DNA of 64,000 nt, taken from Kiritimatiellia bacterium (GTDB lineage: Bacteria; Verrucomicrobiota; Kiritimatiellia; CAIVKH01). Both the position numbers and the translations under genes were made by a program. Below the pieces are notes generated by a model. That model did not search any database, was not told the DNA's origin, and saw only the letters and a list, made by a program, of their open reading frames with translations. Shown here in pieces: positions 1 to 5,141 of this stretch. The DNA is taken from positions 97,261 to 161,260 of the forward strand of contig JBDHQM010000002.1 of NCBI GenBank assembly GCA_039807095.1, read 5' to 3'. How positions within the stretch are numbered: the stretch's first letter is position 1; each line of letters starts with the position of its first letter.

Positions 1-534
1 AGTCTTGCCATCTACGAAGCAGGCGCAACGCCCACCCTCAATCTTCCACCCGCCGACCGCGACGCAGGCATCGCGCGGCTGGCGCCATACCGGAAAGAGA
101 ACACACCCATCTGGATCCTCCATCCCGGCAGCGGAAGCCTGAAAAAGAATTGGCCGCCCGGCAATTTCATCGAACTTGCGCGCCGAATGAAGAGCGAGCG
201 AGGTATTGCGCCACTCTTCCTCTTTGGTGAAGCCGATGACATTGCGCGAGAAAGTATCACCCGCAACGCGCCCGACATTCCCTACATCGAAAACCTCAGC
301 GTTCGAGAAGCCGCGCAGCTCCTGGCCGCCGCAGATGGGTATATCGGAAACGACTCCGGCATCTCCCACCTCGCAGCCGCAGTCGGCGCCAGAACCATCG
401 CCCTCTTCGGTCCCTCCAACCCTGCACTCTGGAGCCCACGCGGCCCCTCCGTCACCATCATCCAATCCCCCGCCCCCCAACTCGACACCCTCCCCGTCAC
501 CACCGTCCTCAACGCTATCCCTCACACCGGCTAG
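1..534 (+). CDS. ADP-heptose:LPS heptosyltransferase (glycosyltransferase family 9), 5'-truncated by window start
   Basis: Open frame from nt 1 joins the 187..534 ORF. The C-terminal GT9 signature region is present (YIGNDSGISHLAAAVG..FGPSNP). Confidence 0.7.
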   Translation, partial: SLAIYEAGATPTLNLPPADRDAGIARLAPYRKENTPIWILHPGSGSLKKNWPPGNFIELARRMKSERGIAPLFLFGEADDIARESITRNAPDIPYIENLSVREAAQLLAAADGYIGNDSGISHLAAAVGARTIALFGPSNPALWSPRGPSVTIIQSPAPQLDTLPVTTVLNAIPHTG

Positions 535-920
535 ACCCGGACACCCACGCAGAAAACGACTCGCATTAGCGTTATTCCGGGCCCTCCACAACACGTCGCC
601 GAGCTGCGAACTGTACGCCGTCTTCGTTGGGGACGGCCTTCAACCCGCACCATACGAAGGGCACGCTCCCCCTCGAAAAAGGTCTACAGTCCACGGTCTA
701 CGGTCTTCTATGAGAAAGCTGTCTCTGTCAAGGTCGAGCGCCGTGGCGGAGTCCTATATTTGAAGCGGGTTTTGAGCATCGTTTTGCTTCTATTCGCACT
801 CGTAATGGATGGCTTATCGCACCCGGTGCATTGTTGGGTCCATCGTCGAAGGGGCTGCTACCTACAGGACGCACTCTAAACGTGCTAGACCGTTACCGCA
901 GTCACCCGGACGGAACATGC

Positions 921-1008
921 TCAAAACTTCACTTCACTTATAGACCTCTACCTCCAACACTCAATGTTTCCTTCTTTGTTGAACCAAACAGTTCCTTTTC
1001 CTTTGTTT
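921..1008. repeat. 88-bp direct repeat (target-site duplication copy 1 of the IS1634-family insertion)
   Basis: Identical to 2670..2757 and directly abuts the left terminal inverted repeat. Confidence 0.85.
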
Positions 1009-2669
1009 CCTGAGTTCAACAATGGGACACCCGCGGACGATTTGAGCCCCAGATCAAATCGTAAAGGGCCTGTTGTTCAGGGTCCATCTGCAGGAGAACG
1101 CTTTGTTTTTCAGGGCTATTGGGATACGTAAAGGTCATTTCATACATGGTCTGCGTAAGCTCAGCCGCGCGCTTTGGCGTAATCTCGATCTTGCCGATTT
1201 CAAGGCGGCGCTGGAGTTCTTTGTAAAGGGTGTACGCCACGAACGCGATCAGCACGTGTGCTTCGATGCGATGGCGTCGGCGGTGATATATCGGACGGAT
1301 GCGCAGATCGGTTTTCGATATGCGAAAAGCTCTTTCGATTTGCCAGAGTTGCCCGTAGTTGTGGATGACTTGATCCGCTGATAATCCCGTGTTGGTAAGA
1401 TAGCCCTTGAGACCATCCCACACTGCGTCCTGAAGAACTTTGGTTTCATCGATTTCCATCAGGACCTCTCCATTGAGTTTTAGATATTTGTTGTAGCCCC
1501 GGTGATTGAGTTGCTCCTTGGTCATACGCCCCGTGGCGATCTGTTTGCGCAATCTCGCGATCCCTCGTTCGCGGTTGTAGCGATCCTTCCTCGCGCGGAC
1601 GTCTGAATAGGCAATGATCAGGCGACGTCCCTGCCCATGTTCCAGCACGACAGACTGGCCAGATCGTAAACTCTGTGCTTGCTGCAAGATGGCTTTGCTC
1701 ATGGCTTCTGTTTCGTTTCGAATGCGTGCGGCCACGATGAAGGGGTATCCCTCCTCCTCAAGGGCCCCAAGGTTTTCTTTACTCAACATAGCCGAGTCGG
1801 CAACGACGACCGGTTTGCCAAGCTTGTATCGCTTTTGGATTCCTCGGAGGACCGGCAACAAGGTCTTTCCCTCGAAGCGGTTACCCTCAAAAATATCGTA
1901 GGCGATCGGATATCCGTTTTCGCCAACAAGGAGGCCCAACATAATTTGTGGATGCTGAAATTTGCCGTCTTTGGAAAAGCCGACCTTTCGGAGATCGTCT
2001 TCGTCTTCCGCCTCAAAATAAAGGCTGGTCATGTCGTAGAACACGGCCGCGATCTGCTTGATGATTTTGCGGGTATGCTGGTATGCGATTTGTTTGGCGC
2101 GGTCGGCATAATGCTCATTGAGCCGGTCAAGGAAGCGGTAAATTTCCTGCACACTTAGTGTTTTGCCGCGGTATCGGTAGAGGTAATCAAGCGTCTTGAG
2201 CTTGCTTGTGGGATAGACCAACCGTGTAACGACGATGTCGCGGAATAGCGTTTCGGGAATGACGTTGAAGCCAACTTCGTCGAAGAGTCGCCCGAAAATA
2301 AGCTCCGGTCCAATCGTGCGAATAGAAGTATTCTTCAGCCCCCGCACAAAGTGATCAATAAGCGATCGTTCACGAGCGTTTTCGAAGGAAAGAAGATACT
2401 GTCCCCGCTCTTCTTCAATGAATCGTTTTCCGAGTTCAATCAGGCGCCGAAGCTCTGTGGGGTCGCGGCTCGATCCAATCGTTTTGATGATGCGATACCC
2501 CTTTGATTTATCGACCACCTGCACGCTGATGCTGCCGGATTTATTCTGCTTCTTTCGAACAAACACACCCCATTTTAGGCGCGGGACACCCAAAACGGCA
2601 ATTCTCAGAAATTGAAGCCTTGTAAATCAACGAGTTACAACAACGACTCCGGCGAATGTTGAACTCAGG
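1009..2669 (-). mobile_element. IS1634-family (IS4-related) insertion sequence, 1661 bp
   Basis: 12-bp perfect terminal inverted repeats CCTGAGTTCAAC at 1009..1020 and 2658..2669. A single 525-aa DDE transposase fills the element. Flanked by 88-bp direct repeats. GC content is visibly lower than the surroundings. Confidence 0.85.
1016..2593 (-). CDS. IS1634-family DDE transposase
   Basis: 525-aa ORF. Its length and sequence character match IS1634/ISMac-type transposases. Confidence 0.8.
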   Translation of the reverse strand: MGVPRLKWGVFVRKKQNKSGSISVQVVDKSKGYRIIKTIGSSRDPTELRRLIELGKRFIEEERGQYLLSFENARERSLIDHFVRGLKNTSIRTIGPELIFGRLFDEVGFNVIPETLFRDIVVTRLVYPTSKLKTLDYLYRYRGKTLSVQEIYRFLDRLNEHYADRAKQIAYQHTRKIIKQIAAVFYDMTSLYFEAEDEDDLRKVGFSKDGKFQHPQIMLGLLVGENGYPIAYDIFEGNRFEGKTLLPVLRGIQKRYKLGKPVVVADSAMLSKENLGALEEEGYPFIVAARIRNETEAMSKAILQQAQSLRSGQSVVLEHGQGRRLIIAYSDVRARKDRYNRERGIARLRKQIATGRMTKEQLNHRGYNKYLKLNGEVLMEIDETKVLQDAVWDGLKGYLTNTGLSADQVIHNYGQLWQIERAFRISKTDLRIRPIYHRRRHRIEAHVLIAFVAYTLYKELQRRLEIGKIEITPKRAAELTQTMYEMTFTYPNSPEKQSVLLQMDPEQQALYDLIWGSNRPRVSHC

Positions 2670-2757
2670 TCAAAACTTCACTTCACTTATAGACCTCTAC
2701 CTCCAACACTCAATGTTTCCTTCTTTGTTGAACCAAACAGTTCCTTTTCCTTTGTTT
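2670..2757. repeat. 88-bp direct repeat (target-site duplication copy 2)
   Basis: Identical to 921..1008 and directly abuts the right terminal inverted repeat. Confidence 0.85.
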
Positions 2758-2769
2758 TTTTCCTTCTTT

Positions 2770-3810
2770 TTAGGCCGCCGCCATTTCCCGGCGATTCGGC
2801 TCATATTCTTCGCCACTCTTCCACAACGCATGCAATAGCACCGCCAGTTTCCTGGCCACAGCCACCACAGCACGCTTCTTCGCCCGCTTCCCACCCCGTT
2901 TCTGGATCGCCATTCCATAGCGGCGCAGATCACACTCCGGACCAAAGGGCCCCAAAATATACTGAGCACTTCCCACCAGCAGTTTCCTCAAATACGCGTT
3001 GCCCGCTTTGCTTATCCCTAGTTGTTTTATCGTCTTGCCCGATTCATCAAGCCGTGGAGTAAGCCCTAAATACGGACCCACCATCCGACTCTTTTCAAAG
3101 CGGTCCGCTTCCTCCAGCGTCAAAACAAACGCAAGCGAGGTGACCGGGCCAACGCCAACAACCTGCTGGAGGGTTTCAGTCTCCGCATAATCAAGGCAGA
3201 GTCGTCCAATAAGTTGATCATAAGCACGTATTTGCTCCGTCATCATCGCTATCAGTTCCATTGTAGGTTCCAAAGCAGGAACGAGCGCCTCAGGAAGCTC
3301 GGCTTTTCGTGCAAAGGCATCAGAACGAATGCTCGATGGAATGCGTTCGCCGAAGCTCTTAACCATGCCGCGAACATGCTGGATTAGTCGGGCACGCGTC
3401 CGAACCACCATGTCACGCGCACGAACAACGGCTAAATCCTGCTGTGCCCCGGCACTGCGATGCTCAATGGGACTTAGCAGTTTGGAATCGAAGCGACCCA
3501 TACGGGCCAACAACTCCGCATCACGAACGTCCGTTTTGTACGCATTCGCCCAGATGGCTCGAAGCTTCCTGGCGTTCCCGACTAGCGTCTCCAAACCTGC
3601 GGCCTTCGCTTCTTCACTCACCCAACGCGAGTGCGTGCCACTCTCGATCACCAGGTTGGCCCCGGAATACTGACCGAAAAACTTCGCCACCGCTTTGCGT
3701 GTGCAGGGAACCGTACATTCCCGAGCAATTTCACCGCTCGCATCCAAAATGCAGACTACGTGCTTTTTATCTCCAAGATCCATACCGATTGTGATAGTTG
3801 TTTCGTTCAT
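2770..3810 (-). CDS. IS110-family transposase
   Basis: 346-aa ORF with an N-terminal DEDD-type catalytic region (ITIGMDLGDKKH...) and the C-terminal IS110/IS1111 transposase-20 region. Confidence 0.85.
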   Translation of the reverse strand: MNETTITIGMDLGDKKHVVCILDASGEIARECTVPCTRKAVAKFFGQYSGANLVIESGTHSRWVSEEAKAAGLETLVGNARKLRAIWANAYKTDVRDAELLARMGRFDSKLLSPIEHRSAGAQQDLAVVRARDMVVRTRARLIQHVRGMVKSFGERIPSSIRSDAFARKAELPEALVPALEPTMELIAMMTEQIRAYDQLIGRLCLDYAETETLQQVVGVGPVTSLAFVLTLEEADRFEKSRMVGPYLGLTPRLDESGKTIKQLGISKAGNAYLRKLLVGSAQYILGPFGPECDLRRYGMAIQKRGGKRAKKRAVVAVARKLAVLLHALWKSGEEYEPNRREMAAA

Positions 3811-3911
3811 TGCTGGTCTCCTTTTTGTTTGCAGCTATTGACTGACTGCGTCGCATGTTATCAAACATGTTCAACAAAACAGGAGATCAGCTTTCTCATC
3901 CAACCTACAGT

Positions 3912-5141
3912 CTACGGTTTCAGAACAAATGATCGAATTCCGGAATCATCGAGCACAAAGTCGTCGCGACTTTCGCTCGTCTCAAAAACCGGGACGATAA
4001 AATCAAGGTCCACGTCAATACCCGGCTGTTTCGCTTTCACAGACACCTTCCACTCAATGCTTCCGCCGCTCGACGGAAGGTCGCGCGGAATACCAAACAA
4101 CACTGGAATCTCAACCCCATTGCCGCGCGCAGGCAATTTTTCCGGGTCCAGGTTTCGCTCGTCGCTCCACACCCGTTCCGTCGTGCTATGCTTGCCCCGT
4201 CGCACGCTCCTGCTGCACACGATCGCGGTGTAATACGACTCATCCGGTTCGGCATAATCCGGAAGCGAAATAACACCCGCCAGTTTTCCGCCCAATACGC
4301 CCGGCACCGATGCCATGTGCAGCACCGCGGCGCCATAGCGACGCGCAACACGCAGCTCGCGTATGCCCCAAATCAGCAAGCCGATGCCGACCAGCGGAAA
4401 AATTGACAGCACAACCACTGCGCCGGTTTCGAGATTTGCGCGATTGATGAAGCCCATCGCAACCGCCAGCGACGAAATCGCGCACCAAATGCCCGCGAAT
4501 GACAGCAACCCCACCGCGCGTGTCGTTGCGGTTGATTTAATCACCCCCGCATTCCAATCCTCGCGCCAACGCCACGGCTCGTCCGGATATTGTTTCTGTA
4601 TTTTCCGCTGCGAACCCGACCGCACCATCGCAGTGATCCCGCCCAGCAGCATCGCGCTGCCGACCAACACAAAGATTCCGCCGACTATCGCCGGAAATAT
4701 CGCCTGACCGCGCGGTAAATCCGGAAACAGCACAGCCTCGCCGGGATCATCCGGATTCACAAACGCCTTGTACGCACCGTCGCTCTTCAATACGCGAGAG
4801 AGCTCGTCATACCGCCTCCGTACCCACTCGTTCCCAATATCAGCGCCGCGCCCAAGTCCAACGCGATTGCCTTCGTAAACGCGGCCGTTCACCTCATATT
4901 CGTATTTTGCCGTCAGGCGATACGAAACACCATCGTCGCCGTTCTCAATCTCCTCGATATTCGCTTCCAGAATGCGCGCGAATACCGGGTTCCATTTCTC
5001 CACCCGATGCATTTCGGCGACGCCGAGAATCGCGCTCCGCACGGCAAATGCGCCGAGCCCGATAAAGGGAAGCGAAAAGAGCGAGATGAAAAGCCCCATC
5101 CAGAATCCGTGGAATGCGTGCCGAATCCGAACACCTGCCAT
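3912..5141 (-). CDS. membrane protein with two tandem DUF3592-like modules
   Basis: Two TM-anchored repeats, each followed by a beta-rich domain, in the pattern typical of DUF3592. Confidence 0.5.
   Translation of the reverse strand: MAGVRIRHAFHGFWMGLFISLFSLPFIGLGAFAVRSAILGVAEMHRVEKWNPVFARILEANIEEIENGDDGVSYRLTAKYEYEVNGRVYEGNRVGLGRGADIGNEWVRRRYDELSRVLKSDGAYKAFVNPDDPGEAVLFPDLPRGQAIFPAIVGGIFVLVGSAMLLGGITAMVRSGSQRKIQKQYPDEPWRWREDWNAGVIKSTATTRAVGLLSFAGIWCAISSLAVAMGFINRANLETGAVVVLSIFPLVGIGLLIWGIRELRVARRYGAAVLHMASVPGVLGGKLAGVISLPDYAEPDESYYTAIVCSRSVRRGKHSTTERVWSDERNLDPEKLPARGNGVEIPVLFGIPRDLPSSGGSIEWKVSVKAKQPGIDVDLDFIVPVFETSESRDDFVLDDSGIRSFVLKP

What the first reader, a model, noticed from the sequence alone, without database searches (positions are those of the whole stretch)
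921..2757. IS1634-family element with perfect 88-bp target-site duplication nested in an IS110-family element
The sequence 921..1008 is repeated identically at 2670..2757. Immediately inside the repeats are perfect 12-bp terminal inverted repeats CCTGAGTTCAAC (1009..1020 and 2658..2669) bounding a 1661-bp element with a single 525-aa transposase. IS1634-family elements are known to generate exceptionally long, variable target-site duplications (tens to hundreds of bp). An 88-bp duplication with zero mismatches argues for a very recent transposition. The insertion lies 13 bp from the end of an IS110-family transposase gene. That makes this an IS-in-IS hotspot between the LPS-core gene and the DUF3592/hisC genes.
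Basis: partly seen in the sequence, partly recalled or inferred. Interest (0 to 1): 0.6.

Follow-up and report, generated by a model that had tools for sequence, protein, structure and literature searches.

The report
IS1634-type insertion inside RNA-guided IS110
A 1.66-kb jumping gene of the IS1634 family has landed inside another jumping gene, an RNA-guided IS110/IS1111-type element, and copied 88 bp of it on both sides; this is an ordinary though well-preserved event, and it separates the host element's enzyme gene from its guide-RNA gene without damaging either.

Summary
Window 921-1008 and 2670-2757 are identical 88-mers, present only twice in the window. They directly abut a 1,661-bp element (1009-2669) with perfect 13-bp terminal inverted repeats and one intact DDE transposase that passes the curated IS1634 model (367 bits, cutoff 100).

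The 88-mer is a target-site duplication:
- The closest relatives share the termini but have unrelated flanks.
- 22 other insertions of this clade carry abutting duplications of 21-596 bp. With the window the median is 88.
- Independent unitigs from SRR19427039 fit the 88-IS-88 arrangement.

The host is an IS1111-type IS110-family element, window 707-3906 (1,451 bp before the insertion). It has 12-bp subterminal inverted repeats and a 3' guide (seek/bridge) RNA gene. Guide segments covary with flanks in about 40 relatives, and the window's guides match its own target, a heptamer array.

The duplicated 88 bp is the non-conserved spacer between the transposase stop codon and the guide-RNA gene. 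All host parts are intact but now lie 1,749 bp apart.

"Hotspot" and "very recent" are over-read. Long variable duplications are already known for IS1634 and IS1549. Verdict: a new member of a known kind, of modest interest.

The parts
1009..2669 (-). Complete IS1634-family insertion sequence, 1,661 bp
   Evidence: Bounded by perfect 13-bp inverted repeats. The termini are conserved in relatives. An identical copy sits on the independent unitig L002.
1016..2566 (-). IS1634-family DDE transposase, 516 aa from the GTG at 2566 (the longest ORF reaches 2593)
   Evidence: NF033559 367.5 bits against cutoff 100, and PF01609. Homologues start at MFVRKK. D164, D243 and E397 are invariant, with a Y-2-L-3-E-6-K motif.
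2657..2669 (.). Left terminal inverted repeat of the IS1634 element (transposase-proximal end), CCTGAGTTCAACA
1009..1021 (.). Right terminal inverted repeat of the IS1634 element
2572..2601 (-). Promoter-like site TTGCCG-18-TAAAAT upstream of the IS1634 transposase start
   Evidence: A consensus match only; 1 site found against 2.1 expected in shuffles, so this is weak evidence.
921..1008 (.). Target-site duplication, copy next to the guide-RNA gene (88 bp)
2670..2757 (.). Target-site duplication, copy next to the IS110 transposase stop codon (88 bp)
707..3906 (-). Interrupted IS1111-type (IS110 family) element: 3,200 bp now, 1,451 bp before the insertion
   Evidence: Subterminal inverted repeats with 7-nt and 3-nt terminal extensions. 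Removing the element rejoins an in-phase heptamer array. The right end and the flank rule hold in 41 of 41 relatives.
2770..3810 (-). IS110-family DEDD transposase, 346 aa, full length
   Evidence: NF033542 198.9 bits against cutoff 140, matching model positions 1-342 of 343; PF01548 and PF02371. It carries every residue that is invariant in the 20-sequence alignment.
3888..3899 (.). Left subterminal inverted repeat of the IS110 element (ATGAGAAAGCTG in transposase orientation); the 7-nt extension AGGTTGG is 3900-3906
   Evidence: (I22)
710..721 (.). Right subterminal inverted repeat of the IS110 element; the 3-nt extension AGA is 707-709
   Evidence: (I22)
787..918 (-). Guide (seek/bridge) RNA gene. 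Helix 1 is 907-898 with 858-850. The right-flank guide is 893-887 (ACGGTCT). The inner hairpin is 885-882 with 874-871. The left-flank guide is 867-860 (CTGTAGGT). Helices 3 and 4 are 836-825 with 801-790. Helix 5 is 824-820 with 811-807. The right-end segment is 793-787 (ATAGAAG).
   Evidence: Homologous in 72 of 74 relatives. Variable islands sit inside a conserved scaffold. Guides covary with flanks. The structure shows covariation.
726..731 (-). Conserved TTGACA inside the IS110 right end, a candidate -35 box of a circle-junction promoter
   Evidence: Conserved in nearly all relatives. Its role is inferred from PMC11187229 and was not tested.
682..706 (.). Right-flank part of the heptamer-array target (YGTRGAC)n of the IS110 element; the left-flank part is 3907-3918

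Best explanation
First, an IS1111-type IS110-family element inserted into a tandem heptamer array, (YGTRGAC)n, between a family-9 heptosyltransferase gene and a DUF3592 gene. Its own guide RNA specifies that site. The element was 1,451 bp long and carried a DEDD transposase, a variable spacer of about 100 nt, and a two-domain guide RNA gene.

Later, a single-copy 1,661-bp IS1634-family element inserted into the spacer. Its two ends joined to opposite target strands 88 bp apart, and gap repair copied the intervening 88 bp. This produced the perfect direct repeats that abut the CCTGAGTTCAACA termini.

Shown here:
- the family of each transposase;
- the termini of both elements;
- that the 88-mer is host-element spacer DNA and not part of the inserted element;
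- that long, variable duplications (21-596 bp) are typical of this clade;
- that the host transposase, both host ends and the guide RNA gene are intact and co-oriented, and now lie 1,749 bp apart.

Inferred:
- The long duplication comes from two strand transfers whose polarity is coupled but whose spacing is not. Each transfer has a loose preference for joining next to an A.
- Guide RNA supply to the IS110 transposase now depends on transcription running through the IS1634 element. IS1111-type guide RNAs are reported to have no promoter of their own.
For: Repeats and termini.

IS1634 family: 367.5 bits against cutoff 100; motifs.

Termini conserved with unrelated flanks.

Duplications in relatives: 104 bp and 26 bp. 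A survey of 23 insertions gives 21-596 bp with a median of 88. One complete Phycisphaerae chromosome alone gives 37, 63, 85, 99, 107, 185 and 271 bp.

End-base bias: A first in 19 of 23 (p about 1e-8) and T last in 14 of 23 (p about 3e-4).

Independent unitigs.

Nesting: the module is homologous in 72 of 74 relatives. The 88-mer alone has no hit in 80 related loci, and homology starts at about position 95-110 after the stop codon. The spacer with one 88-mer copy is 101 nt, against 15-258 nt (median 76) in relatives.

Guide RNA: the first island matches its own right flank with a median of 8 nt, reaching 7 nt or more in 63% of own pairings against 0.3% of mismatched pairings. The second island reaches 4 nt or more in 77% against 11%. 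The right-end rule holds in 41 of 41 elements across 6 variants. In the structure, 89.9% of cells are paired against 29-42% when partners are slid, 17 of 26 pairs are compensatory, and 0 of 500 shuffles reach the observed values.

The window's guides match its own flanks, and removing the element restores an in-phase heptamer array.

Literature: long variable duplications of 8-514 bp for IS1549 and IS1634, with no mechanism known (PMC2266710). IS1111 features, an essential guide region that can act in trans, and no internal promoter (PMC11187229).
Against: - No empty-site allele and no pristine copy of this IS110 element could be found. The nearest relative is 67% identical at the protein level, so a single-88-mer ancestor is inferred, not observed.
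- The Logan unitigs may come from the same reads as the window's assembly, so they are not fully independent.
- Several copies in relatives show no abutting duplication: 1 of 9 copies in the Phycisphaerae chromosome, 5 of 6 in a Myxococcota MAG, and many short-read contigs. Long duplications are common in the clade but not universal.
- The strand-transfer model and the transcriptional consequence are untested.
- The order of events could differ: the composite element could have moved as a unit after the nested insertion.
Confidence: 0.9

Rival explanations
1. The composite moved as a unit. The IS1634 element inserted into the IS110 spacer at some earlier locus. The resulting 3.2-kb IS110::IS1634 composite, with intact ends, transposase and guide RNA, then transposed by RNA guidance into the heptamer array and carried the IS1634 element as cargo.
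For: All IS110 parts are intact and co-oriented, and the guides match the present target. Cargo flanked by IS ends can be mobilised, and the guide region works in trans (PMC11187229). No terminator-like site lies between the IS1634 transposase stop and the guide module.
Against: No second copy of the composite or of either element is seen in the window or in the sample's unitig graph. The simple order, IS110 first and then IS1634, explains the same data with one fewer step.
Confidence: 0.12
2. The 88-bp repeat existed before the insertion, as a tandem duplication in the spacer or as a repeat built by recombination, and the IS1634 element happened to insert exactly at its junction, or was placed there by homologous recombination, making little or no duplication of its own.
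For: No single-copy ancestor of this spacer has been observed. A few relatives have spacers longer than 189 nt (3 of 72).
Against: It requires insertion exactly at the junction of two perfect 88-mers. Twenty-two other insertions of the clade have perfect abutting repeats of unrelated sequence and varied length. With one copy the spacer is 101 nt, which is typical of relatives.
Confidence: 0.03
3. The arrangement is an assembly artefact. The true population could hold an uninterrupted IS110 element, with the IS1634 element elsewhere or as a separate molecule that shares the 88-mer.
For: The 88-mer is longer than k=31, so the graph alone cannot phase the two copies. The unitigs may derive from the same reads as the assembly.
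Against: The unitig L002 shows both IS termini joined to 88-mer sequence, and L001 shows the IS110 transposase joined to the 88-mer. The only simple linear path through that graph is flank-88-IS-88-flank. An 88-bp repeat is spanned by ordinary 150-nt reads. Identical architecture is found in long-read genomes of relatives.
Confidence: 0.03

Closest known systems
IS1634 (Mycoplasma mycoides) and IS1549 (Mycobacterium smegmatis), founders of the IS1634 family
   Same: A DDE transposase of the same curated family. Size falls within 1.5-2 kb. The terminal repeat starts with C and has YT at positions 7-8. The YREK-like motif lacks the arginine. These elements make long, variable direct repeats on insertion, reported as 8-514 bp (PMC2266710). 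Here the repeat is 88 bp, and 21-596 bp in the clade.
   Different: This is a different, environmental clade, found mainly in PVC-group bacteria and also in Myxococcota and candidate phyla; the founders themselves were not compared directly. The family norm given in PMC2266710 is 5-6 bp, so this clade belongs with the 'atypical' members. The A-first/T-last bias at duplication ends was seen here, and I do not know of a prior report.
IS1111-type members of the IS110 family with a 3' seekRNA (ISEc11, ISKpn4, ISPa11, ISPst6; Siddiquee et al. 2024, PMC11187229)
   Same: A DEDD transposase. Subterminal inverted repeats with about 7-nt and 3-nt terminal extensions. A long non-coding region downstream of the transposase gene. 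Short RNA segments that match both strands of the target. No target duplication.
   Different: The target here is a tandem heptamer array, not attC sites, transposon ends or REP sequences. The transposase gene and the guide RNA gene are separated by a 1,749-bp insertion. No RNA or activity data exist for this element.
IS621 bridge RNA (IS110 subgroup)
   Same: A two-domain structured RNA with internal loops, one reading the target and one reading the element's own ends, with a shared core dinucleotide. Here AG starts both the left end and the right flank in most relatives.
   Different: From my own knowledge, the IS621 RNA lies upstream of the transposase gene and the order of the guide segments differs. 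Rfam gives no match for the module here.
Nested insertion sequences (IS-in-IS) in general
   Same: One IS is interrupted by another. This is common in IS-rich genomes.
   Different: Here the interruption falls in the one stretch of the host element that is not conserved, so no functional part is destroyed.

Membership tests
IS1634 family | Transposase matches the curated family model above its cutoff | tested here: met
   NF033559 scores 367.5 bits against a cutoff of 100, covering residues 34-513 and model positions 4-478 of 483. Other IS4-like models score far below their cutoffs.
IS1634 family | DDE triad with a long spacer between the second D and the E, and a YREK-like motif that usually lacks the arginine (PMC2266710) | tested here: met
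   D164, D243 and E397 are invariant in 21 relatives. The D-to-E spacer is 154 aa. The motif is Y390-(2)-L-(3)-E-(6)-K.
IS1634 family | Length 1,500-2,000 bp with terminal inverted repeats of consensus C-----YT (PMC2266710, table) | tested here: met
   The element is 1,661 bp. The repeat CCTGAGTTCAACA has C at position 1 and TT at positions 7-8.
IS1634 family | Target-site duplication: 5-6 bp in most members, long and variable (8-514 bp) in IS1634 and IS1549 | tested here: met
   88 bp here and 21-596 bp in 22 related insertions. This matches the long-variable subgroup, not the 5-6 bp norm.
IS1634 family | Transposition activity | not testable with these tools
   The intact ORF, perfect inverted repeats and perfect duplication are compatible with recent activity, but nothing was measured.
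IS110 family, IS1111 type | DEDD (RuvC-like) N-terminal domain plus the IS116/IS110/IS902 C-terminal domain | tested here: met
   PF01548 and PF02371; NF033542 scores 198.9 bits against a cutoff of 140, full length.
IS110 family, IS1111 type | Subterminal inverted repeats with short asymmetric terminal extensions, about 7 nt left and 3 nt right (PMC11187229) | tested here: met
   A perfect 12-bp repeat at 710-721 and 3888-3899. With 7-nt and 3-nt extensions the flanks rejoin as an in-phase heptamer array. The 3-nt extension is read by the RNA in 41 of 41 relatives.
IS110 family, IS1111 type | Long non-coding region downstream of the transposase gene that encodes a guide RNA with segments matching both strands of the target | tested here: met
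   The conserved module is present in 72 of 74 relatives. Guides covary with flanks. Structural covariation is supported by 0 of 500 shuffles reaching the observed values. The window's guides ACGGTCT, CTGTAGGT and ATAGAAG match its own flanks and ends.
IS110 family, IS1111 type | No target-site duplication | tested here: met
   With the 7/3 boundaries no bases are duplicated. The similar-looking flank sequences are successive units of the heptamer array.
IS110 family, IS1111 type | RNA bound by the transposase and required for circle formation and transposition | not testable with these tools
   This needs RNA-seq or biochemistry.
Rfam-described RNA families | Match to a curated covariance model | tested here: not met
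   No match at E up to 10 over window 500-4100. The module is not filed under any Rfam family.

The most novel reading that the evidence does not exclude
The nested element is not dead. Because the IS1634 element landed in the only dispensable stretch of the IS1111-type host and is co-oriented with it, the 3.2-kb composite may still be an active RNA-guided transposon that carries a second, mechanistically unrelated transposon as cargo. In that case its guide RNA would be transcribed by read-through from the IS1634 transposase gene.

Separately, the clade-wide pattern offers a concrete and testable model for the unexplained long duplications of this family. Duplications of 21-596 bp start with A and tend to end with T, which suggests two strand transfers with fixed polarity and free spacing.
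Probability: 0.2. Interest if true: 0.5.

Novelty: new member of a known kind. Interest (0 to 1): 0.33.

Why it matters
For the genome, this is routine mobile-element annotation: two single-copy insertion sequences, one nested in the other, in an intergenic region, with no host gene disrupted.

Three points have wider use.

1. It is a clean example, backed by a 23-insertion survey, that long variable target duplications are a property of a whole environmental clade of IS1634-family elements. They are not limited to the two founders, and they show an end-base bias that constrains mechanistic models. PMC2266710 notes that no model exists.

2. It shows how to delimit an IS1111-type element and its guide RNA from sequence alone, using covariation between guide segments and flanks. 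This also gives a set of about 40 natural guide-target pairs.

3. It identifies the spacer between the transposase gene and the guide RNA gene as variable in length (15-258 nt) and tolerant of a 1.7-kb insertion. That is relevant to engineering cargo sites in bridge/seek-RNA recombinases.

Tried and rejected
- **Rfam scan of 500-4100 at E up to 10:** no hit.
- **Exact-protein look-ups of the 525-aa and 516-aa transposase readings:** not on record. The database version is a 502-aa call, P0001.
- **Single-sequence fold of the non-coding region:** not more stable than shuffles, z = +0.65. Structure became evident only from covariation.
- **Pristine IS110 copy or empty site:** each exact protein is on record on a single NCBI contig of 177,953 bp, and the look-up returned only Logan contigs. 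The window's genome is not among the representative genomes.
- **Organism name:** no source names were attached to the cluster members. I ran no further search on taxonomy because it would not change the verdict.
- **AT-rich target preference:** the window's duplication has GC 0.36 against 0.55 in its flanks. This does not hold across the clade, where the mean is 0.52 against 0.54, so it was rejected as a general rule.
- **The 88-mer as part of the inserted element (long terminal direct repeats):** rejected, because relatives with the same termini have unrelated flanks.
- **The similar sequences flanking the IS110 element (ctacagtc[c/t]acggt) as a target duplication:** rejected. They are units of a heptamer array.
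- **Sigma-70 scan:** no promoter-like site for the guide module and no terminator between the IS1634 stop and the module. These consensus scans found fewer sites than shuffles, so they carry little weight.
Full report
**1. Observation**

Window 921-1008 and 2670-2757 are identical 88-mers. With up to 3 mismatches allowed, the sequence occurs exactly twice in the 64-kb window, and never in shuffles. Immediately inside them lie perfect 13-nt inverted repeats, CCTGAGTTCAACA, at 1009-1021 and 2657-2669. The enclosed element is 1,661 bp with one long ORF on the minus strand.

Two unitigs from the read set SRR19427039 fit the arrangement. L002 (1,721 bp) is the identical element plus 30 nt of the 88-mer's end on one side and 30 nt of its start on the other. 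L001 runs from hisC through the IS110 transposase and stops about 30 nt into the 88-mer. These are the break points expected at k=31 if the 88-mer has two different contexts.

Both unitigs reach unique flank without branching at an IS terminus. Both elements are therefore single-copy in that sample.

**2. The inserted element**

- The ORF matches the curated IS1634 model at 367.5 bits against a cutoff of 100. All other IS4-like models fall far below their cutoffs.
- Pfam finds only the generic DDE_Tnp_1 domain.
- Homologues start at MF(V/I)RKK, so the likely start is the GTG at 2566, giving 516 aa.
- D164, D243 and E397 are invariant in 21 relatives.
- The spacer between the second D and the E is 154 aa.
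- The C-terminal motif is Y-(2)-L-(3)-E-(6)-K, without the arginine of YREK.

These are the traits that De Palmenaer et al. give for the family, together with a length of 1.5-2 kb and ends of the form C-----YT (PMC2266710).

**3. Is the 88-mer a target-site duplication?**

The closest relatives (81% and 79% aa; L174-L176), a 69% relative (L004-L013) and a 71-72% relative (L003) keep the termini CCTGA[G/C]TTC... and ...GAACTCAGG. Their flanks are unrelated to the 88-mer. The 88-mer is therefore not part of the element.

The 69% relative has a perfect 104-bp duplication in two contigs. It also has a 26-bp duplication, reconstructed across chimeric contigs.

A scan of representative genomes returned 80 loci. 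A search for direct repeats that abut an element of about 1.64 kb did not rely on inverted-repeat detection. With the window it gave 23 insertions with duplications of 21, 26, 30, 37, 40, 51, 55, 60, 63, 85, 87, 88, 99, 104, 105, 107, 120, 142, 185, 190, 271, 576 and 596 bp. The median is 88, the window's own value. A single complete Phycisphaerae chromosome contributes 37, 63, 85, 99, 107, 185 and 271 bp.

Not every copy has a duplication. One of 9 copies in that chromosome lacks one, as do 5 of 6 in a Myxococcota MAG and many short-read contigs, some of which are visibly chimeric.

Long variable duplications of 8-514 bp are already on record for IS1549 and IS1634. The family norm is 5-6 bp and no mechanism has been proposed (PMC2266710).

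Duplications in the survey begin with A in 19 of 23 cases (p about 1e-8) and end with T in 14 of 23 (p about 3e-4). I read this as two strand transfers of fixed polarity, each with a loose preference for joining next to an A, at a spacing that is not fixed. That is inference. A general AT-rich preference is not supported.

**4. The host element**

The neighbouring ORF (2770-3810, minus strand) is a full-length IS110-family DEDD transposase: NF033542 at 198.9 bits against a cutoff of 140, plus PF01548 and PF02371.

A perfect 12-nt inverted repeat, ATGAGAAAGCTG, lies at 710-721 and 3888-3899. The non-coding DNA is 89 nt upstream and about 311 nt downstream of the gene once the insertion is removed. 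This is the IS1111-type layout described by Siddiquee et al.: subterminal repeats, extensions of about 7 nt and 3 nt, and a 3' non-coding region giving a seekRNA (PMC11187229).

Applying the 7/3 rule puts the element at window 707-3906. Removing it rejoins the flanks as CGTAGAC-TGT|AGAC-CGTAGAC-CGTGGAC-TGTAGAC, an in-phase heptamer array. That array occurs nowhere else in the window.

**5. The guide RNA gene and what was duplicated**

A metagenome scan gave 80 related loci at 47-61% aa identity. A 211-nt module, window 920 down to 710, is homologous in 72 of 74 of the loci that have enough downstream sequence. It begins 15-258 nt (median 76) after the stop codon.

With the whole 3' region as query, homology begins at about position 95-110. 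The 88-mer alone finds nothing in the 80 loci. The 88-mer occupies positions 13-100 after the stop. It is therefore the non-conserved spacer, and with one copy the spacer is an ordinary 101 nt.

The module has strongly conserved blocks that bracket hypervariable islands. Across 41 elements, three rules hold:
- The first island is the reverse complement of the element's own right flank. The median longest match is 8 nt, and 63% of own pairings reach 7 nt or more against 0.3% of mismatched pairings.
- The second island equals the end of the left flank, and the conserved AGAT/AGGT that follows it equals the start of the left end. For the island against the last 7 nt of its own left flank, 77% of own pairings reach 4 nt or more against 11% of mismatched pairings.
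- A third segment always reads AT, then the 3-nt right extension, then the first two flank bases. This holds in 41 of 41 elements across six variants.

The window obeys all three: ACGGTCT with AGACCGT, CTGTAGGT with CTGT|AGGT, and ATAGAAG with CAT-AGA|AG.

A five-helix, two-domain structure is supported by covariation. Of all cells, 89.9% are paired against 29-42% with slid partners, 17 of 26 pairs carry compensatory changes, and 0 of 500 shuffles reach the observed values. Rfam has no match.

**6. Consequence**

On the minus strand the order is:
- IS110 left end;
- IS110 transposase;
- 12 nt;
- 88-mer;
- IS1634 element (left repeat, promoter-like site at 2601-2572, transposase, right repeat);
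- 88-mer;
- guide RNA;
- IS110 right end.

Everything is co-oriented and intact. The transposase gene and its guide RNA gene are now 1,749 bp further apart.

IS1111-type guide RNAs are reported to lack a promoter of their own, to be made from the transposase transcript, and to work in trans (PMC11187229). No terminator-like site lies between the IS1634 stop and the module, although that scan is weak evidence.

So the host element may be impaired, or it may still function and carry the IS1634 element as cargo. This cannot be decided from sequence.

**7. Rivals**

- The composite could have moved as a unit after nesting. I cannot exclude this.
- A pre-existing tandem 88-mer is unlikely. It needs insertion exactly at the junction, and it is contradicted by the clade-wide pattern.
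- An assembly artefact is unlikely, given the unitig graph and the same architecture in long-read genomes.
- Long terminal direct repeats belonging to the element are refuted.

**8. Verdict**

'Hotspot' and 'very recent' are over-read. This is a new member of a known kind. The added value lies in the survey of duplication lengths, the end-base bias, and the finding that the duplicated segment is the dispensable spacer of an RNA-guided element.

Noticed in passing
L072, 54-206 and 260-380 nt after the transposase stop codon: One IS110 relative carries two tandem copies of the guide-RNA module downstream of its transposase gene.
   Followed up: no
L175:1-1974: This is a unitig of an IS1634 relative (79% aa). 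It reads as the complete element (1-1662), then 282 nt, then the first 30 nt of the same element's left end, with no graph branch. It could be a tandem IS-282-IS arrangement, a circle of the IS plus 282 bp, or a 282-bp duplication whose outer flanks were not assembled.
   Followed up: partly
window 2583-2591 and 1024-1032; also L003-L013: The 9-mer GGGTGTCCC occurs in direct orientation 79 nt from the left end and 15-23 nt from the right end of the IS1634 element. It is conserved at the same places in relatives and may be a subterminal transposase-binding site.
   Followed up: partly
23 insertions: window plus L005, L098-L172: Target duplications of this IS1634 clade start with A in 19 of 23 cases (mostly AA or AG) and end with T in 14 of 23. 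This suggests a symmetric base preference at the two strand-transfer sites.
   Followed up: yes
window 726-731, and the same position in L014-L093: TTGAC(A) is conserved about 20 nt inside the right end of the IS110-type elements. It is a candidate -35 box of the promoter formed when the ends abut in a circle. The matching -10 box across the junction is poor in the window element.
   Followed up: partly
window 682-706 and 3907-3918: The IS110-type element sits in a tandem heptamer array (YGTRGAC)n, the only such array in the 64-kb window. The right flank starts with AG in 39 of 41 relatives, and the left end starts with AG in most, which is consistent with an AG core dinucleotide.
   Followed up: partly
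window 921-1008, compared with the whole window: The spacer is markedly AT-rich (GC 0.36), against 0.58 for the window, 0.51 for the IS1634 element and 0.53 for the IS110 element. Both elements are below the host GC, which is consistent with foreign origin.
   Followed up: no
L128-L133 (Myxococcota MAG, accession prefix CAXXHC01): Five of six copies of an IS1634 relative in this MAG, assembled in megabase-scale contigs, show no abutting duplication, unlike the Phycisphaerae and Planctomycetota genomes. Possible causes are recombination between copies, older insertions, or a different insertion mode.
   Followed up: no
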